DNA of 41,655 nt from a virus (taxonomy: Duplodnaviria > Caudoviricetes). This document shows, piece after piece, positions 1 through 40,904 of this stretch (position 1 is the stretch's first letter; every line of letters begins with the position of its first letter). The DNA is taken from IMG/VR virus record IMGVR_UViG_3300046779_000350, positions 1 to 41,655 of that record. One strand, written 5' to 3'. The translations under genes were made by a program, and so were the position numbers. Below the pieces are notes generated by a model. That model did not search any database, was not told where the DNA came from, and saw only the letters and a program-made list of their open reading frames with translations.

Positions 1-187
1 TAGTTAAAAACCTTGGTGGATGGAGACCATATCATGACGAAGACACTACTCAATCAGAGTCACAAGAAGAAAGCGGAAGCGACGATGATTAGTACCTATC
101 TTGAATGGTTGACTCAGCATGAGTTCGAAGCAGATGAATGACCTACGTGGCGAACCAACGTTCGCTTGCATATGTGGTTGTCTCATG
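1..187. repeat. Terminal direct repeat (left copy), circularisation overlap
   Basis: 1..187 is identical to 41469..41655 except T at 60 versus C at 41528. Confidence 0.97.
85..141 (+). CDS. Possible 18-aa micropeptide MISTYLEWLTQHEFEADE
   Basis: ATG overlaps the end of the sigma-factor gene and TGA overlaps the next start; it fills the gap in a tightly packed operon, but has no homology support. Confidence 0.3.
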   Translation: MISTYLEWLTQHEFEADE

Positions 188-540: not shown

Positions 541-688
541 TTTTAAATGCAACACCTGTAGTGAGGTTATAGAAACAAATGAAAACATACCACCGATTTG
601 TTCTACTTGCAGTGGAACTATGCAGCGCATATGGTCTGCTCCAGGGATTAAGTTTAATGCACCAGGCTTCTACTCAACAGGAGGATGA
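527..688 (+). CDS. FmdB-family zinc-ribbon protein (53 aa, absent from the ORF track)
   Basis: GTG start after AAGGAG; MPLYDFKCNTC...CSTCSGTMQRIWSAPGIKFNAPGFYSTGG matches the FmdB CxxC..CxxC..F.G.GFY.T pattern. Confidence 0.85.
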   Translation: MPLYDFKCNTCSEVIETNENIPPICSTCSGTMQRIWSAPGIKFNAPGFYSTGG

Positions 689-3780: not shown

Positions 3781-3949
3781 CTCGGTCCAATCGTTCGGTG
3801 TTGATATTAACTGCGTCCCTCATGCTGCTCCCTGAATTAGGTTTCAGTTCGCTTAAGTAATGCTGAACTAACCAGCGAATTGCTGCAGTAAATCCAACAA
3901 TCAAGGTCATTACGGCTACGGCAAAGCCAGCCCACTCTGTTGCTGTCAC
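3725..3949 (-). CDS. Single-TM membrane protein (DUF2746-like, lysis-cassette associated)
   Basis: N-terminal TM then ELKPNSGSSMRDAV and a coiled coil, as in actinophage lysis-region proteins. Confidence 0.75.
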   Translation of the reverse strand: MTATEWAGFAVAVMTLIVGFTAAIRWLVQHYLSELKPNSGSSMRDAVNINTERLDRVEQRVDQIYLILSESKGK

Positions 3950-5952
3950 TATACCGTCCTCACCACAATTGTAATAATTCCACCGTAGCCACTAAACTTA
4001 TCTGGCGGTGTACTTCTCTTCAAAGATATTGCTTCAATCTGTACTTGGCGTAGTTCTTGTGTATTCAAATCCTGCCATAACACAACGTCTCCGCTTTCTT
4101 CAATTGACTCTAACTGCAGTACGCGCTCATGCGCTCTACCTTTATAGCCAGTAGTCACACCATTACGGTCTGTCTCTGTGTCAAAGCAGTAGACAGGGAA
4201 CTGAATTAAACGCTGACGAGGCGTAGCGATAGTAGCCTTAGCCTGATAGCCCTTGAATACAGGACCAAGTGAAGTTGTAGTTGCATCACGAACAAATAGA
4301 AACTTGTAAGCAAGATACTCACGGGCTACTGATGGCTGGTTAGTACCCACTTCAACAGATGGAACTTGTGAGTCGTATGTAATATGGTCATACTCAACAC
4401 CATCCATATCAACAGTAAGCAAACCTAGTGAGCCATACGCAAAGTCACCGCGCCCAATAAGGCGCTTAAAGTTCTTAGGTTCTAGTGTGCCGTAGCGAAT
4501 ATTACCTGTCTTTAAGTAGCCAGTTGAGCGTAAAGTTGATGCATCTTCTACATAAACATGACCATCTACTCCATCAGCATGGGCTGTGCAGAATGTAAGG
4601 CGGTTAGTGCCATCAGCAAAAGCACATGCAGTTGTATGATGACCACTAACTCCTTCTACATAAAGGTCATTTGCGTATGCAAAGCGTAGTGTTTCAATCT
4701 CATTACTAAGGTCAATACGAATAACACCTGGCTCACCATCAACGCTAGTTGCACACCATATATAATGGTTACGTGCAGCAAAGTCATAGCAAGGCTGGCT
4801 GGTCTCCACGATAAGTGGACCATAAGTTATAGAACCATCTGTATCGTTAACGACAGCAGCACGAATACCCTTGTTTGTGCCAATCATCATATAACCAAGA
4901 TAGTAATAAATCTTGTGGACAATCTCGCCTACTGGTAGTTCTGCTGCAACAACAGCAGATGTAAGTGTAGGCATAACACCAGTAGTGCTAAGTGTAAACT
5001 TTTGAATAGTAGACTGAATGCCGTTATATCCTGCAATGTAGATAGCAGGACCAGATGCTGTTATAGATGTATATGTATGGCTAGATACTGGGTGTGTATA
5101 CAAAGCCGTTGGCATAGCCACGGCAGATGCAGCAAATTCATAGACCTTGTTGTCAGCACACATAACAATGCGGTCTTTAACATAGTCCATAGTTGCATTT
5201 GAGATAGTACCAATCTCATCAAACATTGGAGTACCAGGTGTTGATGAGGTAAGAGTCAAAGCCTTTTTGTATACAGTCTTTTTTGTGGCTGTATTTGTAA
5301 TCCAATATGCAGTTGTACCGTCATCGCAGATAGCATAAACAGGTGAATCAGTACCAGAAATATAGTCAATAAAGTGAACTGGATTTGTAGGGTCATCTGC
5401 TGGAATCTTGTCTACGTCATACTCATCATGTAGCAATACGCCAGAAGTAGAGTTCCATTTAATAGAACGCATAGTTTGAAATGGACGACCAGTTGAGCGA
5501 ATAGCACCAGTAGTAACGTGTCCCTGTGTTGCGTTCTTAAGTAGTGTTACTTGTCCCTTAGTCCAGACATCTACGCCTTTGCTATCGGCAAAGCGGTAGT
5601 GTCCTGCTTCATCATTAGTAGCAGGGTCAAAGAAGTTAATGCCAGCACCAGAGTGGAAAGACATCTGACTACGTAACCACCAACCAGTGAGCGACTGCTC
5701 ACCAGGTTCATTGCCATTATCAAACTGGTCTTTACGAAACGGAGCAGTCTGACGAGTAGCCTCATCTTTATCTGAGATTGCAGATATAAACGGCATACCA
5801 CCAATGGCTGTATCGTAAGAGATATTAGTGTTCTGCCAGACAGCATCTGTAGAAACAATACCAATGTCAGCAGTACCACGGGCAATAGGTAGTCCATCGC
5901 CTGCTAACGCCCAGACATTGCCATCACCCTCTGTTATGTCGCGACCAGCCAC
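3949..5952 (-). CDS. Tail protein, probable nozzle/stabilisation (beta-propeller-like) protein
   Basis: 667 aa, beta-rich; AAGGAG RBS and GTG start; size and position are consistent with a podovirus tail tubular B-type protein (inference). Confidence 0.6.
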   Translation of the reverse strand: MAGRDITEGDGNVWALAGDGLPIARGTADIGIVSTDAVWQNTNISYDTAIGGMPFISAISDKDEATRQTAPFRKDQFDNGNEPGEQSLTGWWLRSQMSFHSGAGINFFDPATNDEAGHYRFADSKGVDVWTKGQVTLLKNATQGHVTTGAIRSTGRPFQTMRSIKWNSTSGVLLHDEYDVDKIPADDPTNPVHFIDYISGTDSPVYAICDDGTTAYWITNTATKKTVYKKALTLTSSTPGTPMFDEIGTISNATMDYVKDRIVMCADNKVYEFAASAVAMPTALYTHPVSSHTYTSITASGPAIYIAGYNGIQSTIQKFTLSTTGVMPTLTSAVVAAELPVGEIVHKIYYYLGYMMIGTNKGIRAAVVNDTDGSITYGPLIVETSQPCYDFAARNHYIWCATSVDGEPGVIRIDLSNEIETLRFAYANDLYVEGVSGHHTTACAFADGTNRLTFCTAHADGVDGHVYVEDASTLRSTGYLKTGNIRYGTLEPKNFKRLIGRGDFAYGSLGLLTVDMDGVEYDHITYDSQVPSVEVGTNQPSVAREYLAYKFLFVRDATTTSLGPVFKGYQAKATIATPRQRLIQFPVYCFDTETDRNGVTTGYKGRAHERVLQLESIEESGDVVLWQDLNTQELRQVQIEAISLKRSTPPDKFSGYGGIITIVVRTV

Positions 5953-5978
5953 GTTACTCCTTAGATAGAAAAATTAGT

Positions 5979-6006
5979 TGAGCAGTTTGAATCCGTGCTC
6001 AGGGAT
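5979..6006 (-). promoter_or_regulatory. 28-nt H-type pseudoknot, copy 1
   Basis: Minus strand ATCC-CTGAGCAC-GGAT-TCAAAC-TGCTCA, 26 nt upstream of the GTG at 5952. Confidence 0.75.
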
Positions 6007-6013
6007 AAGTTAA

Positions 6014-6949
6014 TTAGAAACGAAGTACGTAAAGAACTCCAGGACGACCATTGGTTCCTGAAATAATTGCGGATTGGCTTTGTTGTGATTCAACTCCACC
6101 ACCACCAGCGCCGTATCCTGTTGCTTGTACTTCTCCATCTTGATAGTAACCCTTACCAACGCCACCAGTGCCAATAGTTGCACCAGATACAAATTGCCAA
6201 GTTACGGTTGGGGCAATTCCTGTTCTGCCGCTAGTTCCAGCACCAGGCGAGTTGATGTCTCCACCTGTTGCAGTACCACCAACAGAAGCAGCACCATTTT
6301 GAGAGTAACTAATGTTGAAACCTTTTTTACCTGGTCCTCCACCGCTTGCTGTCATTCCAGCAAACGTAGAGTCTCCTCCAGCGGTAGCGTTTTCAGTATC
6401 GCCTGCGCCACCTACACCAGCAGCACCAATTGTTACTGGCATAGAACCAGTTAATTGAACAAGTTTGTTACATACTGCACCAGAAGCGCCACCTGTGCCG
6501 TATCCAACGTTCCATTTAGCACCACCGCCACCTCCACCGCCACCAACAAGTACTGCGTATCCATAACCAGATGCAGATGTACCTGTATAAGTTCCAGATG
6601 ATGTAATTGTATCTAGTGTCCCACTAAAACCATTAGTTAACGCTGCTGCAACCTTTGTAATAGTAACAACAACATTAGAACCAGTATCAGTCCACAAACG
6701 AACTCTATCAACTGTAGAACCAATTTGAATTGTTGCTATTCCAGATACTGTTGTAGCGGTAGTAACAAGATTTGTTAATGAAGAATAAAAATAAACTTTT
6801 GCTACAGTTGTACTTGCACAAGTAACTGTATAAATAGCAGGTTCAAGAGATAACGCAGACGCATACATTGTGTTTGCAGTTGCCGCTGTAATAGAACTTG
6901 CATTAATAGAAGATGCTGCTACTGCAGGCGCTAGTTTGCTAATAGCCAT
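6014..6949 (-). CDS. Tail fibre tip protein with glycine-rich domain
   Basis: LVGGGGGGGG...GGASG...VTIGAAG.GG...GDSTF...GYGAGGGG...G.PGVLYV pattern of phage Gly-rich fibre domains. Confidence 0.8.
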   Translation of the reverse strand: MAISKLAPAVAASSINASSITAATANTMYASALSLEPAIYTVTCASTTVAKVYFYSSLTNLVTTATTVSGIATIQIGSTVDRVRLWTDTGSNVVVTITKVAAALTNGFSGTLDTITSSGTYTGTSASGYGYAVLVGGGGGGGGAKWNVGYGTGGASGAVCNKLVQLTGSMPVTIGAAGVGGAGDTENATAGGDSTFAGMTASGGGPGKKGFNISYSQNGAASVGGTATGGDINSPGAGTSGRTGIAPTVTWQFVSGATIGTGGVGKGYYQDGEVQATGYGAGGGGVESQQSQSAIISGTNGRPGVLYVLRF

Positions 6950-28898: not shown

Positions 28899-30785
28899 CT
28901 AACCGAATCGTTCGTTCCACTGCTCTTGATAGGCAGCGTCGAGGTTTACTGATTGTCTCTTTGATAGTTGTGCTTTAGTTGCCCAACGGTTTTCTTTATA
29001 TCGGCTAGTGAATGAAGCCGCTTGCATTAACTCCTTGGCACGCAATACGCCAAACCATAGCGCCATAACACAGTCAGTCTTACCCTTAGTGTTTGGTTTC
29101 CATGTCATCAATTGCTGAAGCAAGGCTTTCATGCCTTCAGAACCTTCAGTAGATGGGAACTCGATTGAGTTATTATCCTGGAACTTGCCATCACGCAGTG
29201 TTCCAAAGAACGTAGACATAGATGCTACGCCCAAGTTAGTGTCCCATTTATTCTTGCCAGTAAAGTGTGGTTTCAAATCACAACCATACTGGGCAAGCCA
29301 ATTACGTAAATCATCATCTAGGGCATAGCCCTTCTGATGAGCGTTAATCTCAACACGCAATTCATTAGGTCGGTACTTAACAACCAACTCTTCAATCGCG
29401 TCACGAATCTTCTGTGGGCTAGGCTCGGACATGTTTATACAGTCAAGCACATATATACGACCATCTGCTGAGTTATAGTTAATAACCACAAATGCAGAGT
29501 TACCCGTCATCGCAGGGTCAAAGCCAATAATTGTATAACCACTTACACGGCTAGGGTGTCCAAGTTTCTCTGGGTCAAGCGGACCACGCTTACGCATGCC
29601 GTTAACGCAACCTTGCACCAAAGGTGCTGAGAAGATTGCATCCTCAGTAATATCTTCTTGCTGGTAGACCAGCGCCCAAGTAGATGCGGTAACTTCACCG
29701 CGTCGCTTATTGAGGGCTTCACCATTCCACTTAGGGTAAAGACCGTTCTCATCTGGGTTGTCATCATCTCCATCCCAAGGGATGTCAGACTTAGCCCAGA
29801 GAGTCACCCAGTCTTCGACCTTCTCTTTGTACTCAAGGACTGCTGGCATAGCCATATAGGTAAATGGGCTCTTGCCGTTAGACCAGTACTTAGGGTCTCT
29901 TAATTCTCTATAGAAGTCAGTTGCCGCAATTCGCGTTCCCACGATAAGCAACTTACCGTTCTTACCCAGACGGGTGATAACTTCCTTCTGGAGCCAGTTA
30001 ATCTGCTTCTCATACTCATGGGCGTTAGCCGTAGTAATGCAGTCGTCTAGGATAATCAAATCTGCGCGAGCACCGTAAATCTGTCCACCCATACCTAGGG
30101 CTTGGATAGTCGGGTCCTTCTCAGATGAATCACGCGCATCGCCACCAAGGTAGACGGTATCTACACGCCAGGTGTCTGCGTCACCCTTCCAACCGCCTTC
30201 AGGACCGAACGCATTCTGCATCTTGGCGTAACGAGGGTGGGACAACCTGTTCTTAATTGAGTATACAAACTCGCGTGCCTTGTTCAACGTCTTGGAGACC
30301 ACGATGATGCGGACGTTAGAGTTGATGGCGATACGGTAGGTCGAGTAGTTCACGGTCACAACCGTGGACTTAGCGTGCTCAGGAGGCACGTTCACCAGCA
30401 GGCGAGTCTGGTCGCCTGGGTCATAGGTCATAGCAGGGTGGAGCCAGGATGGTTCCTTACCCTCAATCAAATCAATCCAGTCCTGATGGTGGGGGAATAC
30501 CTTCGACCCCAGGAACATCTCAGAGAACTGGGCAAAGGAAATCTCTTCCTTGGGAATCCCTAGCGCCTTGATGGAGTTGCTCTTGGCATCCTCCTTGGCT
30601 TGCTCCAACTTACGGGCAAAGTCTGCATCTCTGTAAATCCAGATGCGGGCGGTATCGGGCTTCGAGCCCACCTTCTCCATAGCCTTGGCGAGGGACATAC
30701 CCTCAGCCACCAGCATAAGAACCTTCTCTTTTGCCTCGTTGGTCTTAGCAGTTTTGGGGTTGGTCGCCCCCTTTTCGAACGTCAT
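28899..30785 (-). CDS. terL: Terminase large subunit with N-terminal HTH-like extension
   Basis: Walker A VPPEHAKST, Walker B LIILDD, coupling motif IVGTR, nuclease IIGFDPA and KTDCVMALW. Confidence 0.93.
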   Translation of the reverse strand: MTFEKGATNPKTAKTNEAKEKVLMLVAEGMSLAKAMEKVGSKPDTARIWIYRDADFARKLEQAKEDAKSNSIKALGIPKEEISFAQFSEMFLGSKVFPHHQDWIDLIEGKEPSWLHPAMTYDPGDQTRLLVNVPPEHAKSTVVTVNYSTYRIAINSNVRIIVVSKTLNKAREFVYSIKNRLSHPRYAKMQNAFGPEGGWKGDADTWRVDTVYLGGDARDSSEKDPTIQALGMGGQIYGARADLIILDDCITTANAHEYEKQINWLQKEVITRLGKNGKLLIVGTRIAATDFYRELRDPKYWSNGKSPFTYMAMPAVLEYKEKVEDWVTLWAKSDIPWDGDDDNPDENGLYPKWNGEALNKRRGEVTASTWALVYQQEDITEDAIFSAPLVQGCVNGMRKRGPLDPEKLGHPSRVSGYTIIGFDPAMTGNSAFVVINYNSADGRIYVLDCINMSEPSPQKIRDAIEELVVKYRPNELRVEINAHQKGYALDDDLRNWLAQYGCDLKPHFTGKNKWDTNLGVASMSTFFGTLRDGKFQDNNSIEFPSTEGSEGMKALLQQLMTWKPNTKGKTDCVMALWFGVLRAKELMQAASFTSRYKENRWATKAQLSKRQSVNLDAAYQEQWNERFG

Positions 30786-31362
30786 CTAGCCCCCTAGAAA
30801 GTTATGTGCCCCAGCAATTTGGCGTACCATGGATTGTTCTGGGGCTATTAAAAATGGACAGACTTCACCTGCCTTGTAGCAGATTAGTACAGTCTGTTGT
30901 AACAGATGTGAAGAAGGCTCTAAAAAGACTTCTGAACTATTTTAGTCTCTATATATACTTAATCCGTTCAAATAGGTCAAACGAACATTTCTGACAGAAA
31001 TATTATAAAACTGCAGGTCAGACAGTACTGGGGTCCTACTGTACAGAAATATTTTAGGTAGAGATACACCATATACTCAACTAAACTATTAATAACTGTA
31101 GGGTCAAACAGTTACTGTTACAGACTAAAGACCACTACAGTACAGATAGTCTGCGTGGTTGTAGGCAGTCTCTCTGCCTAGGCACAGACTGAACCTTGTG
31201 CCCAGTATATTTAAACTGTATATACTGCGGTGACATAGTCTGTATCTATAGGTCTCCTTCCTTGTCAAGTCCATAAACGCTACGCATGGACTAGACAATT
31301 CCCTCCGACCTATGATGTTCTGTTTGCTGTAGTTAGAATCTATCTAACACAGAAAGGTAACT
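30786..31362. promoter_or_regulatory. Divergent control region (promoters, possible origin or packaging site)
   Basis: Largest non-coding gap at the strand switch; direct repeats, palindromes, hairpins; TGGACT-18nt-TATGAT at 31287..31316. Confidence 0.7.
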
Positions 31363-31812
31363 ATGTCTCAGTATGAACTCCCTCTCGGCATGAGTCTCAC
31401 CAACCAATGTTATGACTGCATGCAAATGGATTCCCTATGCGACAACTGCCAAGACCTTGCCGACGCAAGGCTTGCTGACCGCGCTCATGAACTGGTAGAT
31501 GAGGGTAATCTCCAGTACGCTCGCCCTTGGTTTGCCACTACGGAACCAAGTGCTCACGATTGGGTAGCACCAGTCACAGCCCTAGTTCGTCCAGCGCATA
31601 TGCCAGACGGAACCATCAGGGTAGAACGGAACGAGTATCTACCTCCCATCACTAACCTCCAAGACGGCGGTGTCTATGAGGAACTGTGGGAGTTGGACGA
31701 CATGCGCCAAAGAGCGCGTGAGACTGAGTGTCAATGGTGTCATCTGCTTACCCCAAAAGCATTCAATGACTGCCAAGCATGTGACAAGCCACTAGAACTA
31801 AACGTAAGGTAA
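31363..31812 (+). CDS. Early protein with two Cys4 clusters
   Basis: CYDC..CDNC and CQWC..CQAC; AAAGG RBS. Confidence 0.8.
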   Translation: MSQYELPLGMSLTNQCYDCMQMDSLCDNCQDLADARLADRAHELVDEGNLQYARPWFATTEPSAHDWVAPVTALVRPAHMPDGTIRVERNEYLPPITNLQDGGVYEELWELDDMRQRARETECQWCHLLTPKAFNDCQACDKPLELNVR

Positions 31813-31816
31813 CAAG

Positions 31817-31853
31817 CAGGTAGCCCCTCTCCCTAGCGGGAGGGGCAACCCGC
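31817..31853 (+). promoter_or_regulatory. GC-rich intergenic hairpin
   Basis: GGTAGCCCCTCTC/GGGAGGGGCAACC stem without U-tract, followed by an A-rich spacer and AAGGAG. Confidence 0.6.
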
Positions 31854-31890
31854 CAGTAAGTAAACTAATCAACTAACTAAGGAGAAGCAA

Positions 31891-32238
31891 GTGAAGAACG
31901 AAGTAACTATCACAGGTACAGTAAAAAACGTAAAGACATATTCAAACGAGCGTGGAACATTACTTACAGGCTGGTTTGACCAACGAGATACATCTCGCAC
32001 CTCAGACGGAACCGCAGACCGTCAGGTCTATGTAGTTGGCATGAATATCGTAGCACTAGATGATTCCACAGTAGGTGAGATTCTAGGTGCAACTAAGGCA
32101 GGAACAGAAGCCTCAATGCCAATCACAATCACAGGACGCATGGTCACTCGCTTTGACCGCCGTCCAAATGTACCTCGCGAGAAACAGTATGCACCAACAC
32201 TCCAGTTGGAAGTACATGCTGTAGAAGTACACGCATAA
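31891..32238 (+). CDS. SSB/PriB-like OB-fold protein
   Basis: NEVTITGTV...NIVA...PITITGRMVTR...QLEVHAVE follows the SSB OB-fold pattern; no acidic tail. Confidence 0.7.
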   Translation: MKNEVTITGTVKNVKTYSNERGTLLTGWFDQRDTSRTSDGTADRQVYVVGMNIVALDDSTVGEILGATKAGTEASMPITITGRMVTRFDRRPNVPREKQYAPTLQLEVHAVEVHA

Positions 32239-32245
32239 AGACCAG

Positions 32246-32289
32246 GTAGGTGGGTGGTTCACCAGAGCCACTCACCTATTTTCTTTTTT
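32246..32289 (+). terminator. Intrinsic terminator
   Basis: TAGGTGGGTGGTTC-ACCA-GAGCCACTCACCTA followed by TTTTCTTTTTT. Confidence 0.9.
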
Positions 32290-32348
32290 CAAGGAGTTAA
32301 GTCGTTGGAACGGCTAACTACAAGTCCACAATTAATCAAAGGAGAATC

Positions 32349-32519
32349 ATGTATCTATCTACATCAGAAGTAATCGGCTTGACCATTGCACTAGCATCAT
32401 CAATCTTTATTATAGTTCTAACTACTATTGCAAACTACCAGTTGCAGCAGGATAATAAATTCCTGCGCCGCAGACTGCGTGTGAACAGAGAGTACTATCA
32501 GAAGGTAGCGAGTAACTAA
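32349..32519 (+). CDS. Single-TM small protein (56 aa, absent from the ORF track)
   Basis: AAGGAG RBS; MYLSTSEVIGLTIALASSIFIIVLTTIANYQLQQDNKFLRRRLR...; TAATG coupling. Confidence 0.8.
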   Translation: MYLSTSEVIGLTIALASSIFIIVLTTIANYQLQQDNKFLRRRLRVNREYYQKVASN

Positions 32520-32737
32520 TGATGAATCTAAAGGAACAGATAGGACAGTACGAAGTATCTACTGTAGCCCTTCCCTTTGCCCATGGTCTAGACCTATATG
32601 AGACCATGGTCTTTGACAAGGACGACCATTCAGTAGAGAATTATACAGCCAGATACAAATCATATGATGAGGCAGAGGCTGGACATGAAAGTACAATAGA
32701 CCTAGTCCGACAACTAATACTGGAGAAACTACGATGA
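32519..32737 (+). CDS. Hypothetical phage protein
   Basis: VSTV.L...YETMVF...RY.SYDEAEAGH motif. Confidence 0.8.
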   Translation: MMNLKEQIGQYEVSTVALPFAHGLDLYETMVFDKDDHSVENYTARYKSYDEAEAGHESTIDLVRQLILEKLR

Positions 32738-32865
32738 GTGAACCAAGAGAAGACGACGACATTGCATTGGATAAAGATGGCGAGTGCGAAGACTGCGGCA
32801 ACTTTATCTTTGAGTGTGTATGTAATATTCCCGACGAACCTTACGACGTAGTCTATGCTGACTAG
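32734..32865 (+). CDS. Acidic Cys4 micro-protein (43 aa)
   Basis: MSEPREDDDIALDKDGECEDCGNFIFECVC...; ATGA coupling. Confidence 0.7.
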   Translation: MSEPREDDDIALDKDGECEDCGNFIFECVCNIPDEPYDVVYAD

Positions 32866-33289
32866 CGCATTCAAGAAATACTATGCCAGCATAAGCATAG
32901 CCATCCTTACATTCGCTAGCATGATAGGCATCCCTATCAAATCGCTAGCCGACAATCCTAACTATGACCCATGCAAGGTTGAGTTAGGTCCAACAGTATG
33001 GAGCAAGCAGAAGGCTAAAGCCTATGCCCTTGCATATATGAAACTACACCACCCAACATGGACTAAGGCTGAGTGGCGTTCACTTAATAAGTTATGGGGC
33101 AAGGAGTCTGCTTGGAATATGTATGCAGATAATCCTGAGTCCAGTGCTTATGGAATCGCACAGATTCTAAACACCAAGCCTGGAACTCCAGCCCCTCTAC
33201 AGATTGAGAAGGGGCTGTCGTATATCGTTCATCGTTACGACAAGCCATCAATCGCATGGGCTCACCATAGAAAGAACGGTTGGTACTAA
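32855..33289 (+). CDS. Secreted lytic transglycosylase-like (SLT/Apf-like) protein
   Basis: Signal peptide; LWGKESAWN..A.NPESSAYGIAQ...QI..GL.YI..RY..P..AW.H....GWY. Confidence 0.88.
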   Translation: MLTSAFKKYYASISIAILTFASMIGIPIKSLADNPNYDPCKVELGPTVWSKQKAKAYALAYMKLHHPTWTKAEWRSLNKLWGKESAWNMYADNPESSAYGIAQILNTKPGTPAPLQIEKGLSYIVHRYDKPSIAWAHHRKNGWY

Positions 33290-33462
33290 TGAACTACATA
33301 GTACAAGTAGAAATCTCAGTCGAAGCAGATGATGATGACGCTGCTTTATTCTGGGTGAAAGATGCAGTACAAATGTATGGCGCAACAATGTCTATTCATC
33401 GGTGGATAGATACACGACTAGAAAGAGAGAGCAACAATGGAACAGACACTAACAATCAATGA
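33289..33462 (+). CDS. Hypothetical small protein
   Basis: TAATG coupling; YIVQVEISVEADDDDAA. Confidence 0.65.
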   Translation: MNYIVQVEISVEADDDDAALFWVKDAVQMYGATMSIHRWIDTRLERESNNGTDTNNQ

Positions 33463-33940
33463 CCAACTCGTAGAGTTAGGTACGCTAGAAGGCAACGAAG
33501 AAACTGCACCTCAGCGTGTAGGTGCACGTCTAATTGAATCCTATTTCAATACATTCAATGATGAGCATGCACTAAGCGTTGAGCAGGCAGCAAACATTCT
33601 CTACTATCTAACAGACATTCAGGTACGTGACTATGCACTTGGCTTACTAGACAAGGACAAGTCAGACCGTCTTGTCCCTGCATTGCTACACTTAGTAGAC
33701 CTAGCCCCAACAGATACCATCTACATCAACGCACCAGCCTCATTGCTGTCAGTTGTATACTATGAGATGCGTAATCCATCAGATTCATTGACCAGCCTAA
33801 GCAATGCAAGTAAAGACTATTCATTGGCTCAGTTGCTACGCCGTGTTTATACAGCAGGCTGGGACCCAAGCACATTTGCTCGTATGCGTGAAGAACTACA
33901 TCCTCAAGTAACAGCAGGTATCTTCGGAGAGGATGCATAG
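33437..33940 (+). CDS. DUF4192-like protein (C-terminal part of the actinobacterial family)
   Basis: LTDIQVRDYALG...APASLL...YSLAQLL..V..AGW.P. Confidence 0.7.
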   Translation: MEQTLTINDQLVELGTLEGNEETAPQRVGARLIESYFNTFNDEHALSVEQAANILYYLTDIQVRDYALGLLDKDKSDRLVPALLHLVDLAPTDTIYINAPASLLSVVYYEMRNPSDSLTSLSNASKDYSLAQLLRRVYTAGWDPSTFARMREELHPQVTAGIFGEDA

Positions 33941-33942
33941 TC

Positions 33943-34299
33943 ATGGGTCTTGACATGTATCTATATCAAAAAGATACACATGAGGTAGCCTATTGGCGTA
34001 AGGCTAATGCTATTCATGGCTGGATTATCGGAACTACTAAGTCAGTAGATGACTGCACACCTATCCATCTCACCAAGATGGACATCGTTCAGTTACGAGA
34101 TGACTGCCAGAAAGTACTAGATGAGGGCACACAAGACATGGCATGGGAACTATTGCCTCCAACCAGTGGCTTCTTCTTTGGTAGCACAGAGATTGACGAG
34201 TGGTACTGGGATGATATAAAATCTACACTTGAAAAACTAAATACAATTATAGATGAAACCAGCGACGATGCTCAGTTTGAGTATCAAGCATCATGGTAA
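33943..34299 (+). CDS. Conserved hypothetical phage protein
   Basis: MGLDMYL, YWRKANAIHGW, LPPTSGFFFGS, YQASW. Confidence 0.85.
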   Translation: MGLDMYLYQKDTHEVAYWRKANAIHGWIIGTTKSVDDCTPIHLTKMDIVQLRDDCQKVLDEGTQDMAWELLPPTSGFFFGSTEIDEWYWDDIKSTLEKLNTIIDETSDDAQFEYQASW

Positions 34300-34309
34300 G
34301 GAGAGAGTA

Positions 34310-35338
34310 ATGCTGCAAGTTAGCGAGTCATATAATAATAAAGCAATCAGCAAACTAAACAAGCAGGCTTGGGTAAAGGCTGGCACAGCAGTAAGTGCTG
34401 GCTCTGCATCAGAGGCTGCACGACAGGCTGGTCTTGACTGGACTGTTCAACTAACAGACATGCAAGCAACATACAAACAGCCACTTGCAAGTGGTGATAC
34501 TTATACACACAGAGTAGAAGTACCACGCAAACAAGCAGTACTTAAGTTTATGCCAGGCTGTGAAGTACCTGAGTCTGTCATTGGTGTAGTCGGTGACAAG
34601 TACAAGGTAGTGCAGAACATGGAAGTATTTAGTGCGCTAGATACACTGGTAGATTCAGGTGACGCACGCTATACAGCAGCAGGTGAGTACAATAACGGCG
34701 CTAACATCTGGATGATTATGGAACTACCTCTAGGTGTAAACGTAGCCAATGACCCACATGCTGCATTCCTGCTAGTGCAATCATCACATGATGGTTCATG
34801 CGCAGTACGCATCCGCCCTATCATTGAACGTTTGTTCTGCTCTAATCAAATCAACGGTATCGTTAAGGGCAAGAAGACAAACGACTTTACTTATGTTATG
34901 AAACATACAAGTAACTCAGAGTTATCTGTCAATGACATTCGTAACATCACACAACTTACATACCAAGCCATTGAAGAGTATGAAGTAACAGCCAATGGTT
35001 TGCTACAGCGTGAGGTATCAGCAGCACAAGTACGTGATTACTTCAAGCGTGTATGGGCATTGCCTTCTACTGTAGAGGACAAGCCATACCACCTACTCAC
35101 ACAGGGTGAGCGCAGACAACAGACCATTGCTATTACTGCACGCGACAAAGCGTGGCAGGTATACAATGAATCAGAAACACAAGCCAACATTCGAGGCACA
35201 GCATTTGGTGCATGGCAAGCAGTGGTAGAATACGCTGACCACCATGCTTCGGGTGGCTCCGAACGGCTCGCCGTTGCCACCCTCAGTGGACGCAATGACA
35301 ACATCAAGAACAAAGCACTAAGCCTAGTGCTTGCATAG
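34310..35338 (+). CDS. DUF932 (TIGR03299-like) protein
   Basis: AGLDWTV, GVVGDKYKVVQN.E.F, SSHDGS, RLFCSNQ, KHT, RGTAFGAWQAVVEYADH; AAGGAG RBS. Confidence 0.9.
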   Translation: MLQVSESYNNKAISKLNKQAWVKAGTAVSAGSASEAARQAGLDWTVQLTDMQATYKQPLASGDTYTHRVEVPRKQAVLKFMPGCEVPESVIGVVGDKYKVVQNMEVFSALDTLVDSGDARYTAAGEYNNGANIWMIMELPLGVNVANDPHAAFLLVQSSHDGSCAVRIRPIIERLFCSNQINGIVKGKKTNDFTYVMKHTSNSELSVNDIRNITQLTYQAIEEYEVTANGLLQREVSAAQVRDYFKRVWALPSTVEDKPYHLLTQGERRQQTIAITARDKAWQVYNESETQANIRGTAFGAWQAVVEYADHHASGGSERLAVATLSGRNDNIKNKALSLVLA

Positions 35339-35339
35339 T

Positions 35340-35468
35340 ATTGGTGCCCGTTACTAGGAGTGATGGGATGTACACACCAATTGGCATAGTGAACCAGCGT
35401 AAGGTCCCGCGTGAAGACTGAGATGCAGGTAGTTTATGCCTCACCTGAGCATGTGATTAAACTGCTCA
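35340..35468 (+). ncRNA. Candidate structured RNA leader ending in pseudoknot copy 2 (35441..35468)
   Basis: Hairpin 35340..35381, GGCATAG/TTATGCC-closed domain 35383..35440, then TCAC-CTGAGCAT-GTGA-TTAAAC-TGCTCA. Confidence 0.6.
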
Positions 35469-35489
35469 TCCAAACAACGAGAGGGAAAC

Positions 35490-35909
35490 ATGAACACAAT
35501 CCAAGTTACAACAGAAGATGGTACTATTAACTATACCGAAGCAGAGGTTCTACATTTCAAGAAGAGAGCGCAGGAAGTAGATGCAATCCAGCAAGCCAGC
35601 GACAATCAATGGAAACAAATCCGTGACATTCGTAATCAGGTCCGTGACTTCTTCAGTGAAGGTGAATGGTCAGACGGTGAAACAGTCTGCAACAAGGGTG
35701 ATGTCAATGCATTACTCGAACGTATCGGAACACACAAACTCACAACCAAGTATCGTGGAACATTCACAGTTACTGGTACATTCGAAATAGATGCAGAAGA
35801 AGAAGATGAAGTCGAGTCAACTATTGCAGATAACCTTTCAGTTGAATGTTATGCTGCAGATATAGACGTAGATAACATTGAGATTCTTGACATCGAAGAA
35901 GACAACTAA
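35490..35909 (+). CDS. Hypothetical acidic protein
   Basis: GAGGG RBS; coiled coil then acidic beta-rich C-terminus. Confidence 0.8.
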   Translation: MNTIQVTTEDGTINYTEAEVLHFKKRAQEVDAIQQASDNQWKQIRDIRNQVRDFFSEGEWSDGETVCNKGDVNALLERIGTHKLTTKYRGTFTVTGTFEIDAEEEDEVESTIADNLSVECYAADIDVDNIEILDIEEDN

Positions 35910-36283
35910 TGTCTTCAGCCTATGTTCCGTATAACGGTACTGCTGGCTGGTCAGGTACGGATACATCTCAGCAGAGAGCGCTAGATAATATCCACTCAGA
36001 ACGGGAAGAAAACAACCAGCAAAAAGCGTTACGTCTATTAAAACTTAGAGGTACAGTAGGCTTAACCTGGAAAGAGTTAAGCACAGAAACAGGTTGGCAT
36101 CATGGCACTGCAAGTGGCATACTGTCAGTCCTGCATATGTCTGGTGCGATTGTTCGCACCTATACAGTACGTAATAGATGTAAGGTCTACGTCCATCAGA
36201 ACTTTAAAGATGACGTTAAGATTGAACCGCGCATTAAGAAAGAAAAACTTTGTCCGCATTGCGGCAATAACATCAACGCATAA
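35909..36283 (+). CDS. Winged-HTH DNA-binding protein with C-terminal CxxC
   Basis: GLTWKELSTETGWHHGTASGILSVLHMSGAI; CPHCG. Confidence 0.8.
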   Translation: MSSAYVPYNGTAGWSGTDTSQQRALDNIHSEREENNQQKALRLLKLRGTVGLTWKELSTETGWHHGTASGILSVLHMSGAIVRTYTVRNRCKVYVHQNFKDDVKIEPRIKKEKLCPHCGNNINA

Positions 36284-36291
36284 CCGTTCTA

Positions 36292-36374
36292 TGCTATGAT
36301 GGGACAACCAGTAGGGCGGTAGGTTTTTGGCTCTCTCCTTGTCCTACCCCCACTGGTATCTTAATCTAAGGAGA
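36292..36374 (+). promoter_or_regulatory. Extended -10 promoter and structured leader of the replication operon
   Basis: TGcTATGAT at 36292..36300; stem 36307..36357 with a CTCTCTCCTT loop; AAGGAGA RBS at 36368..36374. Confidence 0.65.
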
Positions 36375-36377
36375 ACA

Positions 36378-37151
36378 ATGGCAGAAGTAGAAGTACCTAG
36401 AGATAGGTACGGCAGACCAATGATTGTGCCACCGAAGGGTGGCAAGCCAGTTGCATATACAAGAACAACAACAGTTGCAGGTTCATTAGATGATGGCACT
36501 GCATTAGTTGCATGGAAGTTACGTATGGCAGCAACTGGATTAACATTACGCTCTGACTTATTGCTTGCTGCATCTGCAGCACGTGAAGATAAGTTAGAGA
36601 TGGACAAGTTAGTTGAAGATGCAATGGAAGCAGCAGGTGCTACTAAGCAGGCTACTATTGGTACAGCAATCCACTCACTAACAGAAAAGTTGGATAGAGG
36701 TCAAGACCTCGGACCAATACCAGATGATTACGTTGCTGACATACAAGCGTATGCAGAAGCAACTAAGAACTTTACTAACATTCATATCGAACAGTTCTGT
36801 GTGCTAGATAAGTATAAGATTGCTGGCACACCAGACCGCATTGTCGAATACAAAGGTGAGAAGTTTATCTCTGACCTTAAGACAGGAAGCATTAGTTACC
36901 CAAACAAAATCGCTATGCAGTTAGCAGTCTATGCACACGGCTTGCCGTATGACCCTGCTACGGCAACCCGTGGTTCGTGGGGTGACATCAACACAGAGAA
37001 GGGAATCATCGTTCATCTACCAGCAGGTAGTGGACAATGCACTCTTCACTTTGTAGACTTAGTTCATGGTTGGAAAGGTATTGACCTAGCCATGAAAGTA
37101 AGAAAGCACCGCGAAAAGAAAAACATATCTACACCAATACAAGGAGAATAA
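36378..37151 (+). CDS. PD-(D/E)XK exonuclease (Cas4/RecB-like)
   Basis: PRDRYGRP, GTAIHSLTE, IAGTPDRIV, ISDLKTG, MQLAVYA. Confidence 0.88.
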   Translation: MAEVEVPRDRYGRPMIVPPKGGKPVAYTRTTTVAGSLDDGTALVAWKLRMAATGLTLRSDLLLAASAAREDKLEMDKLVEDAMEAAGATKQATIGTAIHSLTEKLDRGQDLGPIPDDYVADIQAYAEATKNFTNIHIEQFCVLDKYKIAGTPDRIVEYKGEKFISDLKTGSISYPNKIAMQLAVYAHGLPYDPATATRGSWGDINTEKGIIVHLPAGSGQCTLHFVDLVHGWKGIDLAMKVRKHREKKNISTPIQGE

Positions 37152-38431: not shown

Positions 38432-38784
38432 GTAACGCAGCAAAGGCTAAAGGTTCTGGAGCAGAGAGAGATGTCGTTGTATATCTCAAAGAGAATGATT
38501 TTAAATATGCTGATAGACGATTGGCTGGCGCTACGTTAGATAAGGGTGACATCTCAGGTATACCTGGAGTTACAATTGAAATCAAGAATCATGCCAAGAT
38601 GAACTTGGCTGGATGGACAGAGGAATTGCTCATAGAAATGAGCAATGACGGGGCGTGGACAGGCGTGGTGTGGCACAAACGGAAAGGGAAGCGGAGCCCT
38701 AAAGATTGGTACTGCACCATGCCTGGACATGTGTGGTTAGACCTACTAAAGAGAGCCTTAAACAATGGAGAAACCAAGCATTGA
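38428..38784 (+). CDS. Holliday junction resolvase-like PD-(D/E)XK nuclease
   Basis: KAKGSGAERDVVVYL, DKGDISG, TIEIKN. Confidence 0.82.
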   Translation: MSNAAKAKGSGAERDVVVYLKENDFKYADRRLAGATLDKGDISGIPGVTIEIKNHAKMNLAGWTEELLIEMSNDGAWTGVVWHKRKGKRSPKDWYCTMPGHVWLDLLKRALNNGETKH

Positions 38785-39142
38785 GGAATACCTGCGCTAT
38801 ATAGGTGCAGATACACCAGCAATAGGTGCTGGTTGGCGTAAGATGAAGTGCTGCTTTCATCTTGATAGTCACGCATCAGCAGCAGTAAACTACGATAAGA
38901 ACGCCTTTGTCTGCCACGGTTGTGGTGTCAAAGGCGATGTTTATTCTTTAATCATGTACAAAGAGGGAGTCAATTTCCGTGAGGCTAAACAATTCGCAGA
39001 GACAGTTCTTGCTACAGGCAACACAGAGATACGCAGCAGCGATAGAAAGCGCGAGCGCGTATCTGTCAAGCCGTCATCTCTCGGTAGACGAGGCAAGAGT
39101 CTTTCACTTGGGAGTGGTAGAAGACCCGCTTCCAGGGCATGA
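38765..39142 (+). CDS. DNA primase zinc-finger (CHC2) subunit
   Basis: CCFHLDSHASA...FVCHGCGVKGDVYSLIMYKEGVNFREA. Confidence 0.9.
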   Translation: MEKPSIEEYLRYIGADTPAIGAGWRKMKCCFHLDSHASAAVNYDKNAFVCHGCGVKGDVYSLIMYKEGVNFREAKQFAETVLATGNTEIRSSDRKRERVSVKPSSLGRRGKSLSLGSGRRPASRA

Positions 39143-39614
39143 GCCATACAAAGGCAGGCTTGCTATCCCATATATCACGCCATCAGGTGTGGTAGATATT
39201 AGATTCCGTGACTTGACTGGTACTCATGACGCTAAGTACATGGGATTAGTTGGTGCTGAAACTACTATGTTTAATACACAAGCAGTCTTTGCTGCCGATG
39301 GTTACATATGCGTAACCGAAGGTGAGTTCGATTGCATTATGATGGGTACTAAAACACAGCACCCGACAGTTGGAATTCCAGGGGCTAACAACTGGAAGAA
39401 ACACTACTCTAAAATACTAGATGACTTTGAAACAGTCATTGTGCTAGCCGACGGTGATGCCCCAGGCTTAGAGTTTGGCAAGAAGATTAGCCGTGAACTA
39501 GGCAATGTAAACATCATCAGCATGCCAGATGGCGAAGACGTAAACTCTATGATGATAAAGAAGGGGAGTGAGTGGATTGACGAACGAATCCGAGAATGCA
39601 TTGCCAATGGATGA
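38979..39614 (+). CDS. DNA primase Toprim subunit
   Basis: YLSSR, RLAIPY, IRFR, KY, VTEGEFD, GIPGA, LADGDAPG, DVN; GAGGGAG RBS before GTG. Confidence 0.92.
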   Translation: MRLNNSQRQFLLQATQRYAAAIESASAYLSSRHLSVDEARVFHLGVVEDPLPGHEPYKGRLAIPYITPSGVVDIRFRDLTGTHDAKYMGLVGAETTMFNTQAVFAADGYICVTEGEFDCIMMGTKTQHPTVGIPGANNWKKHYSKILDDFETVIVLADGDAPGLEFGKKISRELGNVNIISMPDGEDVNSMMIKKGSEWIDERIRECIANG

Positions 39615-40192: not shown

Positions 40193-40904
40193 CTTACAGA
40201 TTCCATATCAAGATGATAAAGCAGTAAATGCTGTTATAGATTTTATCGCTGATTACCAACCAGATGAACTCTGGTGTGTAGGTGATGAACTAGATGCACC
40301 AGAACCATCGCGTTGGAATCGCGGTATGGCTGGCGAATATGCAGGCACACTACAGCAAGGCATAGATACAACTAAAGAAATTATTAGTGATTTCAAGAAG
40401 GCACTAGGAAAGAAACCATTCTATATTCAAAGGTCTAATCATACGGACCGCATTGACACTTACATTCGTAAGTATGCCCCAGCGTTCAGCAGTCTCAAGT
40501 CTTTAGAGATTGAAGAACTACTGGGGTATAACTCTTTAGGAGTAACTTACTTGCACAAGATGCATGAGTTACTACCTGGCTGGGTAATGGCACACGGTGA
40601 TGAAGGCAAGTTGTCACAGACACCTGGAAGTACAGCATTGTCATTAGCCAAGCGTCTAGGCAAGTCAGTAGTCTGTGGACACACGCATCGCGTGGGTTTG
40701 CAACATGAAACAGCAGGCTTCTATGGCAAGACACATACACTCTTCGGTCTAGAAGTCGGGCATATGATGGACATCAAGCAGGCGGATTACCTATCTGCAG
40801 GCACTGCTAATTGGCAGCAGGGCATTGGTATCCTAGTAGAGGACAACAAGAAAGTTGTACCATTTGCTGTACCAATCATTGGTGGCGAGGTACGTCTACC
40901 ATAA
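40167..40904 (+). CDS. Calcineurin-like metallophosphoesterase
   Basis: LSDLQIP, VGDELD, SNH, HGD, CGHTHR. Confidence 0.9.
   Translation: MKRVVVLSDLQIPYQDDKAVNAVIDFIADYQPDELWCVGDELDAPEPSRWNRGMAGEYAGTLQQGIDTTKEIISDFKKALGKKPFYIQRSNHTDRIDTYIRKYAPAFSSLKSLEIEELLGYNSLGVTYLHKMHELLPGWVMAHGDEGKLSQTPGSTALSLAKRLGKSVVCGHTHRVGLQHETAGFYGKTHTLFGLEVGHMMDIKQADYLSAGTANWQQGIGILVEDNKKVVPFAVPIIGGEVRLP

What the first reader, a model, noticed from the sequence alone, without database searches (positions are those of the whole stretch)
5979..6006. A 28-nt pseudoknot repeated on opposite strands with compensatory stem changes: candidate novel cis-regulatory RNA family
Seen: minus strand 6006->5979 reads ATCC CTGAGCAC GGAT TCAAAC TGCTCA, and plus strand 35441..35468 reads TCAC CTGAGCAT GTGA TTAAAC TGCTCA. 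Both are exactly 28 nt, intergenic and in the sense orientation. They end 26 and 21 nt before a start codon, followed by an unstructured spacer and an RBS. Stem 1 differs at three of four pairs yet stays fully Watson-Crick (ATCC/GGAT versus TCAC/GTGA), while CTGAGCA and AAACTGCTCA, which form stem 2 (TGAGCA/TGCTCA), are invariant. Inference: this is selection on an RNA H-type pseudoknot with a conserved core and an A-rich loop able to form triples. It could be a nuclease roadblock, processing signal, translational enhancer, protein-binding operator or tiny ligand sensor, used in both a late (tail) and an early transcript. I cannot match it to a named riboswitch or ribozyme.
Basis: partly seen in the sequence, partly recalled or inferred. 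Interest (0 to 1): 0.85.

Follow-up and report, generated by a model that had tools for sequence, protein, structure and literature searches.

The report
Coremin-like phage RNA roadblock pseudoknot
The two 28-base repeats are copies of a tiny knotted RNA fold that thousands of phage contigs and many bacteria carry between genes; its core matches a plant-virus element known to stop RNA-eating enzymes and ribosomes, so it likely shields the downstream gene in the same way, which is untested.

Summary
Observation confirmed. Both copies are real and belong to a widespread H-type pseudoknot family: about 2,800 IMG/VR stretches hold the exact core and about 240 GTDB stretches a near-identical pattern. 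Both stems covary. No Rfam family matches.

It is strand-specific. A same-strand stop codon lies 5-12 nt upstream in 190 of 339 copies, 0-4 nt upstream in 3, and in 18 on the antisense control. It also precedes tRNAs (33 sense, 0 antisense).

Its conserved and free positions match the mutational map of the plant-virus coremin/xrRNA-WCC motifs, which block 5'->3' nucleases and ribosomes. It lacks their loop G and second hairpin.

In relatives, copy 2's slot holds either this knot (18 of 59) or an xrRNA-like three-way-junction RNA (30 of 59), never both next to the start codon. In bacteria it sits exactly 7 nt behind a conserved 16-codon Cys peptide (83 of 104).

Best reading: a 5'-facing roadblock against RNase J and run-on ribosomes (0.55), untested. 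This scan noted what reads as the same element on other DNA at least ten times.

The parts
5979..6006 (-). Pseudoknot copy 1 (S1 4 bp, L1 C, S2 6 bp, L2 1 nt, L3 6 nt ending AAAC)
   Evidence: present at 23 of 58 unique orthologous slots
6007..6016 (-). TAA stop (6016-6014) of the glycine-rich tail-fibre-like ORF 6014-6949, plus the 7-nt spacer to the knot
5953..5978 (-). 26-nt U/A-rich leader with Shine-Dalgarno-like AAGGAG (5962-5957); it travels with the knot in relatives
3949..5952 (-). Downstream ORF of copy 1 (667 aa, phrog_11667, unknown function)
34253..35338 (+). DUF932 gene upstream of copy 2; DUF932 genes precede the knot in many other phages
35340..35381 (+). Predicted hairpin after the DUF932 stop; seen in L796 too, absent from most other relatives read
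35383..35440 (+). Conserved stem-loop with internal loops and a variable inner stem, abutting copy 2; 4 nt after a stop codon in most relatives
   Evidence: no Rfam match
35441..35468 (+). Pseudoknot copy 2; its slot holds a three-way-junction pseudoknot RNA instead in 30 of 59 relatives
35469..35489 (+). 21-nt A/C-rich, weakly structured leader with Shine-Dalgarno-like GAGAGGGA, shared by knot and three-way-junction alleles
35490..35909 (+). Downstream ORF of copy 2 (139 aa, no PHROG or Pfam family)

Best explanation
Each copy is a 28-nt RNA element with two covarying, interlocked stems and a coremin-like core, and it likely acts as a 5'-facing mechanical roadblock that would stop RNase J and run-on ribosomes coming from the upstream gene, so that the downstream gene or tRNA would keep its own protected 5' end.

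Shown by sequence and calls: the covarying fold, the invariant junction bases, the strand and position rules, and the swap with another pseudoknotted RNA at the same slot.

Inferred by analogy with coremin and luteoviral knots: C5 docks in the stem-2 groove and A19-A21 in the stem-1 minor groove, giving resistance to unfolding from the 5' side.

Inferred: the knot needs at least 5 nt after a stop codon because a terminating ribosome would otherwise melt it, or because it is meant to meet that ribosome at the mRNA entry channel. Decay of the upstream cistron, or a scanning ribosome, then halts at the knot. That leaves a short leader, a Shine-Dalgarno site and the start codon 19-30 nt further on for fresh initiation. 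Which machine matters more, nuclease or ribosome, is not resolved; the bacterial 16-codon peptide family points to the ribosome.
For: (1) Fold. 93 of 131 unique hits have 4/4 Watson-Crick pairs in the unconstrained stem 1, against a shuffled mean of 6.7 and a maximum of 15. With the two middle stem-2 pairs left free, 36 of 36 non-canonical hits keep them paired, 34 Watson-Crick and 2 with a G-U. In 89 distinct sequences, 88 rows of the 90 aligned found through protein or peptide queries, 90% of cells pair, 8 of 10 pairs change on both sides, 0 of 500 shuffles reach this, and slid controls give 24-37%. G is nearly absent at the two bases after the knot (0.04 and 0.03), where it would extend stem 2 and destroy stem 1.
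(2) Coremin match (PMC6546385 passages; PMC10321173). There the C-G closing pair, a pyrimidine at loop position 1, the penultimate loop A, the spacer AAA and the following CU are required. The two inner pairs may covary, the outer pair is dispensable, and insertions at the spacer's 5' end are tolerated. Here C4-G13, C5, A11 and A19-A21 are invariant, the inner pairs covary, the outer pair is broken in 42 of 89, and longer L3 loops occur. Coremin stalls Xrn1 and scanning ribosomes (PMC10520033).
(3) The copies travel with the downstream gene. Copy-1 slot: knot-to-start 25-30 nt in 23 of 23, behind many unrelated upstream proteins. Copy-2 slot: knot-to-start 19-25 nt in 18 of 18; the nearest long upstream frame ends 12-113 nt before it in 15 of 18.
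(4) Copy-2 slot: 18 knot, 30 three-way-junction RNA, 11 neither, 0 both within the proximal slot, about 9 expected if independent. That RNA has a loop-to-3' pseudoknot like PK2 of flaviviral xrRNA (PMC7603331, which also states that xrRNAs resist RNase J1).
(5) Stop codon 5-12 nt upstream in 190 of 339, 0-4 nt in 3, antisense control 18.
(6) 83 of 104 peptide-gene hits, found without any knot letters in the query, carry the knot exactly 7 nt after Cys16; 4 hits fall at any of the 24 other offsets, and the stop codon varies from codon 17 to 31.
(7) Cultured phages with matches infect mostly Firmicutes, Actinobacteria, cyanobacteria and alphaproteobacteria, groups that have RNase J (own knowledge; over or near the cut-off in 6 of 10 such or other genomes tested). 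One query found no match in 5,426 E. coli genomes. In phig1e, StB12 and D6E a close variant sits just before the scaffold-capsid genes.
Against: No experiment and no RNA-end data. Three coremin features are not met: loop position 2 is G in 0 of 359 copies; the last loop base is C in 41 of 359, including window copy 1; and a downstream hairpin, which coremin needs for Xrn1 resistance, is not enriched (67 of 359 against 72 shuffled). Similar-sized frameshift pseudoknots do not stop Xrn1 (PMC10321173), so a knot alone is not enough. Some copies have nothing obvious to protect: 13 of 339 are followed by DnaA-box-like DNA, 6 of 32 DUF932-linked copies have no tRNA or SD-led gene behind them, and 169 of 339 had no downstream class in my crude scheme. 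The peptide-gene copies are often followed by a terminator or a convergent gene. RNase J was not found over the cut-off in 5 of 5 Bacteroidota/beta/gamma bins and 3 of 5 others that carry the knot (incomplete bins). Vibrio, crAss-like, Pasteurella and (imperfectly) E. coli phages carry it. The knot is absent from 35 of 58 copy-1 slots, so it is dispensable there. In L842 and L843 both RNAs occur in tandem.
Confidence: 0.55

Rival explanations
1. 3'-end cap. After RNase P, a ribozyme or an endonuclease cuts just behind it, the knot would be the last structure on the upstream mRNA and would stop 3'->5' exonucleases before they reach the stop codon, preventing non-stop mRNA and tmRNA tagging.
For: tRNA 5' ends lie 1-13 nt behind the knot in 33 of 336 copies, and no tRNA lies directly in front of it. 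A hammerhead-like sequence follows in L526 (read by eye; the Rfam hammerhead hit in that locus lies upstream). The knot hugs stop codons and stays with DUF932 genes while what follows changes. Most earlier scan notes favour this reading.
Against: In this phage group both copies keep a fixed distance to the downstream start, not to the upstream stop, and copy 1 follows unrelated upstream genes. Copy 2 already has two strong stems between the stop and the knot. Peptide-gene copies often have a terminator hairpin behind them and are placed by the start codon, not the stop. The known structural relatives resist from the 5' side, and xrRNAs unzip easily from the 3' side (PMC7603331).
Confidence: 0.2
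2. Protein-binding site or initiation enhancer. The knot would be a docking site for a host factor (ribosomal protein S1, a 30S standby site, or a regulator) that raises or tunes initiation at the next gene.
For: The knot keeps a narrow 19-30 nt distance to start codons at both slots. The junction bases are invariant across phyla. It sits before scaffold-capsid genes.
Against: Many copies precede tRNAs, ncRNAs or terminators rather than start codons. A differently built RNA replaces it at the same slot. The search on S1-binding SELEX pseudoknots returned no consensus I could compare (listing only).
Confidence: 0.12
3. Processing signal or very small self-cleaving ribozyme that would cut polycistronic phage RNA into single genes.
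For: Intergenic, sense-strand placement next to tRNAs and ribozymes; an invariant C and A at the helix junction.
Against: At 28 nt it is shorter than the 50-80 nt expected for self-cleaving ribozymes (PMC10085705 passage). The junction itself varies (A11-U23/C22 against A11.G23/A22 in 19 of 83). All conserved bases are accounted for by a coremin-type tertiary core.
Confidence: 0.05
4. Recoding stimulator: stop-codon readthrough or -1 frameshifting driven by a pseudoknot 5-9 nt downstream.
For: The spacing of 5-9 nt after stops resembles recoding spacers (own knowledge). Coremin-type knots do stimulate frameshifting when given a slippery site (PMC10321173).
Against: Slippery heptamers lie upstream in 11 of 356 copies against 7 in a control window. 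After the stop, the frame closes within 10 codons in 90 of 192 and no spacer phase is fixed. All three stop codons occur.
Confidence: 0.04
5. Ligand-sensing riboswitch, or a DNA operator TGAGCA-N11-TGCTCA.
For: Compact pseudoknots occur in preQ1 and similar riboswitches (own knowledge); the core is palindromic.
Against: Neighbouring genes share no pathway. Covariation of both stems, the strict strand bias and the variable spacer length rule out a DNA operator.
Confidence: 0.03

Closest known systems
Coremin motif (xrRNA-C) of beny-, cucumo- and other RNA viruses (PMC6546385 passages; PMC10520033 parts 1-3 of 6)
   Same: 3-4 bp 5' hairpin closed by C-G, loop starting with a pyrimidine and with a penultimate A, spacer NN-AAA-C-U; the inner pairs covary, the outer pair is dispensable, and tandem copies occur. 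114 of 359 copies have the same GUC/GAC inner stem and 28 the same 11-nt stretch.
   Different: The loop here is 8 nt and forms a 5-6 bp Watson-Crick stem 2. Loop position 2 is never G, the last loop base can be C, and no second hairpin is enriched. Found in DNA phages and bacteria, not eukaryotic RNA viruses.
xrRNA-WCC, the Watson-Crick coremin variant (PMC10321173 parts 1-4 of 6)
   Same: Canonical H-type pseudoknot on the coremin scaffold with a 1-nt L1; the A-U pair next to the junction corresponds to A11-U23. The natural example also starts 8 nt into a 3' UTR.
   Different: xrRNA-WCC has a 3-bp stem 2, needs G at L1 and a G-C pair with the spacer C, and needs hp2 to stop Xrn1. Here L1 is C, stem 2 has 5-6 bp and the spacer C is usually unpaired.
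Ribosome termination structure, RTS (PMC7518266 passages)
   Same: Structure just downstream of stop codons (folding minimum centred 5 nt after the stop), proposed to insulate against re-initiation.
   Different: RTS is a statistical, sequence-free class of folds; this is one defined pseudoknot family with invariant bases, also used away from stop codons.
Luteoviral (BWYV-type) -1 frameshift pseudoknots (as described in PMC10321173)
   Same: About the same size; 1-nt C loop, A-rich long loop.
   Different: Those lie in coding regions behind slippery sites, have a short stem 2 and do not stop Xrn1; no slippery-site enrichment here.
Flaviviral class-1 xrRNA (PMC7603331 passages), for the alternative element at the copy-2 slot
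   Same: Three-way junction with a loop-to-3'-strand pseudoknot like PK2; the P3 stem and the 6-bp pseudoknot covary.
   Different: No PK1 or base triple identified; no sequence similarity tested or claimed; no Rfam match.

Membership tests
Coremin (xrRNA-C) | 3-4 bp hp1 with a C-G (Y-R) closing pair, covarying inner pairs, dispensable outer pair | tested here: met
   C4-G13 in 89 of 89; inner pairs covary; outer pair broken in 42 of 89
Coremin (xrRNA-C) | Spacer with essential AAA followed by CU | tested here: met
   A19-A21 invariant; U23 in 73 of 89, the rest mostly a G23 variant
Coremin (xrRNA-C) | Loop consensus YG(NN)AD | tested here: not met
   Y and penultimate A present, but G at loop position 2 in 0 of 359 and last base C in 41 of 359
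Coremin (xrRNA-C) and xrRNA-WCC | Second hairpin directly downstream | tested here: not met
   67 of 359 against 72 in shuffles; none of useful stability behind either window copy
Coremin (xrRNA-C) and xrRNA-WCC | Stops a 5'->3' exoribonuclease and stalls ribosomes | not testable with these tools
   needs in vitro degradation and translation assays
xrRNA-WCC | Watson-Crick loop-spacer pseudoknot with a 1-nt L1 | tested here: met
xrRNA-WCC | G at L1 and a G-C pair between the last loop base and the spacer C; 3-bp stem 2 | tested here: not met
   L1 is C in 90 of 90; last loop base G in 4 of 296; stem 2 has 5-6 bp
Ribosome termination structure (RTS) | Stable structure beginning just downstream of a stop codon | tested here: met
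   190 of 339 within 5-12 nt; window copy 1 at 7 nt, copy 2 not (102 nt)
Ribosome termination structure (RTS) | Reduces re-initiation on the downstream cistron | not testable with these tools
   needs two-cistron reporters
-1 frameshift or readthrough pseudoknots | Slippery heptamer upstream, or a conserved open frame past the stop | tested here: not met
   11 against 7 of 356; the frame closes within 10 codons in 90 of 192
Any Rfam 15 family | Covariance-model match over the element | tested here: not met
Flaviviral class-1 xrRNA (alternative element) | Three-way junction plus loop-to-3' pseudoknot (PK2) | tested here: met
   15 distinct sequences, all paired over the 6-bp pseudoknot, with compensatory changes; P1 and P2 read by eye
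Flaviviral class-1 xrRNA (alternative element) | PK1 and base triple forming a ring round the 5' end | not tested
   no equivalent identified by eye; needs a structure

The most novel reading that the evidence does not exclude
Phages and bacteria have their own exoribonuclease-resistant RNAs. This coremin-like knot and the three-way-junction RNA that replaces it are two independent xrRNA folds that carve stable single-gene messages out of polycistronic phage transcripts. Bacteria reuse the same knot behind a 16-residue His/Cys arrest peptide to park ribosomes at a defined codon.
Probability: 0.3. Interest if true: 0.9.

Novelty: new variant of a known kind. Interest (0 to 1): 0.74.

Why it matters
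xrRNAs are described from eukaryotic RNA viruses; my searches found no report of a natural one in phages or bacteria. A 28-nt portable roadblock in thousands of phage contigs would explain how compact phage operons give different genes different mRNA lifetimes and keep tRNAs and ncRNAs apart from upstream ribosomes. The coremin structure was unsolved in the 2023 papers I read; this family supplies a fully Watson-Crick, strongly covarying form of the same core, which makes that fold directly testable. It would also be a very small insulator part for synthetic operons. The bacterial peptide-plus-knot gene is a candidate new kind of ribosome-arrest unit.

Tried and rejected
Rfam, gathering and E-value modes, on the window and on 60 fetched loci: no family over the knot, the upstream stem-loop, the three-way-junction RNA or the peptide gene. 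Only neighbours rang (tRNA, tmRNA, DUF2800 RNA, hammerhead), plus sub-threshold miRNA-type chance hits.

Ten paper searches found no description of this element. The supplement of Weinberg 2017 (PMC5737381) could not be read. In Fremin 2023 (PMC10690425) four motif strings gave no hit in the readable files, but the alignment archives, the PDFs and file 4 were not searched. Either paper may hold the motif. The Minerva preprint and PMC10085705, read as passages, do not describe it.

HDV-like ribozyme for the alternative element: considered and dropped, because its pseudoknot strand lies in the P3 loop rather than before P3 (own knowledge of HDV topology).

Selenocysteine readthrough or attenuation for the peptide gene: the UGA is not conserved, and the longest downstream frames are 29 sense and 30 antisense with no shared function. 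NCBIfam gave no family for 16 of the peptides.

Promoter scan of 30700-36400: no excess over shuffles and no site at the knot. No tRNA in the window. No three-way-junction element in the window by my pattern.

The ORF-orientation classes were too noisy to separate convergent from divergent contexts. Single-strand folding cannot show pseudoknots.

Full report
Setting. The window is a complete circular phage genome: it has a 187-nt terminal overlap and encodes terminase, portal, capsid and tail fibres, plus a WhiB gene. The WhiB gene suggests an actinobacterial host (inference). Copy 1 lies in the leftward structural arm, 7 nt after the TAA of a tail-fibre-like gene and 26 nt before a GTG. Copy 2 lies in the rightward arm, 102 nt after a DUF932 gene, directly behind two stem-loops and 21 nt before an ATG. 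A descriptor of the fold finds only these two sites, and none in 60 simulated genomes.

It is a real RNA pseudoknot family. The fixed core alone matches about 2,800 stored IMG/VR stretches (estimate from 3 of 64 parts), and a near-identical pattern about 240 GTDB stretches from many phyla. Among 131 unique viral hits the unconstrained stem 1 is fully Watson-Crick in 93 (shuffled mean 6.7, maximum 15), and all four pair types occur at the inner positions. In the GTDB hits the inner three pairs are Watson-Crick in 112 of 119. Freeing the middle of stem 2 gave 36 non-canonical hits out of 132, all paired there. I aligned the two window copies with 88 of 118 sequences that were found through protein or peptide queries and picked by position and a few core letters, not by pairing. 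In the 89 distinct rows, 90% of cells pair, 8 of 10 pairs show two-sided changes, 0 of 500 shuffles reach that level, and slid controls give 24-37%. Related sequences inflate such counts, but three independent contexts agree. C4-G13, C5, A11 and A19-A21 are invariant in that set, and the outermost pair of each stem is often broken. G is nearly absent at the two bases after the element, as expected if extending stem 2 at the cost of stem 1 is selected against. This disposes of the DNA-operator reading.

Where it sits. A same-strand reading frame of at least 50 codons ends 5-12 nt upstream in 190 of 339 copies, 0-4 nt upstream in 3, and in 18 on the antisense control. The counts peak at 5 nt and fall off (60, 42, 23, 18, 23 at 5-9 nt, of 350). 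With the stop codon in the A site, a 5-nt spacer puts the first pair at about +12, the mouth of the ribosome's mRNA entry channel (own knowledge). PMC8012679 (passages) gives 12-15 nt past the P site as the nuclease-protected length, and PMC7518266 (passages) finds a genome-wide folding minimum centred 5 nt after stops. Behind the knot lie SD-led genes (123 of 339), tRNAs (34), DnaA-box-like DNA (13) or nothing that I could class (169). tRNAs are always downstream and sense (33 against 0). A DUF2800 RNA begins at the next base in L017. Recoding signals are not enriched.

Closest known structure. Earlier scan notes named the coremin motif, and I checked it in three papers: PMC6546385 (passages), PMC10520033 (parts 1-3 of 6) and PMC10321173 (parts 1-4 of 6). 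The positions that coremin needs are the ones invariant here: the C-G closing pair, the first loop pyrimidine, the penultimate loop A and the spacer AAA, followed by a mostly conserved CU. The positions it tolerates changing are the ones that vary here: inner pairs, outer pair, first two spacer bases, and insertions there. Coremin stops Xrn1, stalls scanning ribosomes and promotes frameshifting, the last also in an E. coli screen. This element is not a member: loop position 2 is G in 0 of 359 copies, the last loop base is C in 41, and no second hairpin is enriched (67 against 72 shuffled). It has a 5-6 bp canonical stem 2 instead, which may or may not do the second hairpin's job. Similar-sized frameshift knots do not stop Xrn1, so function cannot be read off the shape.

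What relatives of this phage show. I took the 80 best relatives of each downstream gene (of 88 and 229 found) and dropped 14 short or start-less loci and 7 or 8 duplicates from each set. At the copy-1 slot 23 of 58 carry the knot, always 25-30 nt before the start, behind many unrelated upstream proteins. The spacers of 3 nt there come from a wrong-frame call, and the three 4-nt spacers listed have a broken outer pair. At the copy-2 slot 18 of 59 carry the knot 19-25 nt before the start, and 15 of these lie 12-113 nt after the nearest long upstream frame. Thirty carry a different RNA in front of a similar leader, 11 carry neither, and none has both in the proximal slot, against about 9 expected if they were independent (related loci are not independent samples). 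L842 and L843 have both in tandem. The alternative RNA is a three-way junction whose third loop pairs over 6 bp with a strand 3' of the closing stem, with compensatory changes (15 distinct sequences). It matches about 230 viral stretches, and 75 of 95 unique copies have an SD and a start codon within 60 nt. Its topology is that of flaviviral xrRNA with PK2, a class stated to resist RNase J1 (PMC7603331 passages); I found no PK1 equivalent. Two folds that each resemble a known 5'->3' block, alternating in one slot and anchored to the downstream start, are the main reason I prefer a 5'-facing roadblock to the 3' cap favoured by most earlier notes.

A bacterial family points to the ribosome. In chromosomal loci of Deltaproteobacteria, Acidimicrobiia, Aminicenantes and Clostridia, the knot overlaps the end of a small ORF with no NCBIfam family, M[KR]R[FY]xxPRxAHCSxGC, led by an SD. 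A metagenome scan for the peptide codons alone gave about 660 stretches. Of 104 unique hits with a start codon and Cys16, 83 carry a paired knot exactly 7 nt after codon 16, and 4 hits fall at any of 24 other offsets. Synonymous codons vary freely, peptide conservation ends at Cys16, and the first stop falls anywhere from codon 17 to 31 (residues 7, 8, 10-13, 15 and 16 were largely fixed by the query). The outer stem-1 pair is broken in 51 of 83, which puts the first pair 5 nt after codon 17, the same geometry as after a stop codon. A few genes without the knot have a GC-rich hairpin at about that offset (L646, L723). The transcript often ends in a terminator-like hairpin, and the longest downstream frames are half antisense and unrelated, with some metal-resistance neighbours (merA, arsR, arsM). 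A nuclease block would have little to protect here, whereas a ribosome held at Cys16 explains the spacing (inference).

Hosts. Cultured phages with blastn matches infect mainly Firmicutes, Actinobacteria, cyanobacteria and alphaproteobacteria. I checked 12 of them by sequence: SIO1, Labelle, Molivia, ParMal1, NMeng1, D6E, phig1e, StB12, cr7_1, Vibrio D456 and a Pasteurella phage carry the knot or a close variant, and E. coli phage phiEcoM-GJ1 an imperfect one. One query found nothing in 5,426 E. coli genomes. RNase J (TIGR00649) passed the cut-off in 5 of 15 carrier genomes and came close in a sixth; it was not found in the 5 Bacteroidota, beta- or gammaproteobacterial bins, nor in 4 others, all possibly incomplete. 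The link to RNase J is thus a tendency with exceptions.

Verdict. The element is a real, widespread RNA family with no entry in Rfam 15 and no description in ten paper searches; two supplements that might list it could not be read. It works most likely like a coremin-type xrRNA, as a barrier facing 5' against nuclease and ribosome (0.55). The rivals are a 3' cap (0.2), a protein-binding or enhancer site (0.12), a processing element or ribozyme (0.05), a recoding signal (0.04) and a riboswitch or operator (0.03). No functional step is shown. This scan has reported what reads as the same element on other genomes at least ten times (their letters are mostly withheld, so identity is judged from descriptions).

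Noticed in passing
L643-L761 (e.g. L643:483-565 +); GTDB loci L532, L539, L546, L550, L569, L571, L584, L598: A bacterial small gene with no NCBIfam family, M[KR]R[FY]xxPRxAHCSxGC, with an SD, the knot exactly 7 nt after Cys16 in 83 of 104, a variable stop and often a terminator; about 660 metagenome stretches. Candidate ribosome-arrest or metal-sensing unit.
   Followed up: partly
L806-L875 about 600-680 (+); L965-L1084: A 65-90 nt three-way-junction RNA with a covarying 6-bp loop-to-3' pseudoknot, mostly 17-30 nt before start codons in related phages; about 230 viral stretches, no Rfam match.
   Followed up: partly
window 35383-35440 (+); L764-L804: Conserved stem-loop with internal loops and a variable inner stem, 4 nt after a stop codon in most relatives and followed by either the knot or the three-way-junction RNA; no Rfam match.
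   Followed up: partly
L005, L015, L024, L028 and 28 more; window 34253-35338: DUF932 genes are a frequent upstream partner: 26 of 32 such loci run DUF932, knot, tRNA (mostly tRNA-Asp).
   Followed up: partly
L004, L012, L076, L111-L113, L119, L590, L634: The knot followed by DNA with DnaA-box-like 9-mers, possibly a phage replication origin.
   Followed up: no
L017:285-445; similar text in L542, L556, L592, L595, L600, L615, L622: The knot ends at the base before a DUF2800 RNA (Rfam hit in L017; the others by eye).
   Followed up: no
L565, L653, L685, L753: Tandem double knots, in some cases sharing one base.
   Followed up: no
L637 about 2590-2630 (phiEcoM-GJ1, unannotated): A short frame that reads like a tmRNA tag (ANDSEMRVAA-stop; likeness recalled, no Rfam hit) in a long non-coding stretch upstream of an imperfect knot.
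   Followed up: no
window 38765-39614 (+) and 40811-41560 (+): The primase is in two overlapping ORFs in different frames (zinc-finger part 38765-39142, catalytic part 38979-39614), a possible frameshift; the phage also encodes a sigma-factor-like protein and WhiB.
   Followed up: no
window 1-187 and 41469-41655; 30786-31362: A 187-nt terminal overlap (circular assembly), and a 577-nt region without long ORFs between the divergent arms that is rich in short TACAG/CTGTA-type repeats, a likely origin or control region.
   Followed up: no
L519, L536, L544, L562, L605, L576 (Saccharibacteria): Saccharibacteria assemblies, including a complete chromosome, carry the knot, several at one conserved position before a small gene.
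   Followed up: no
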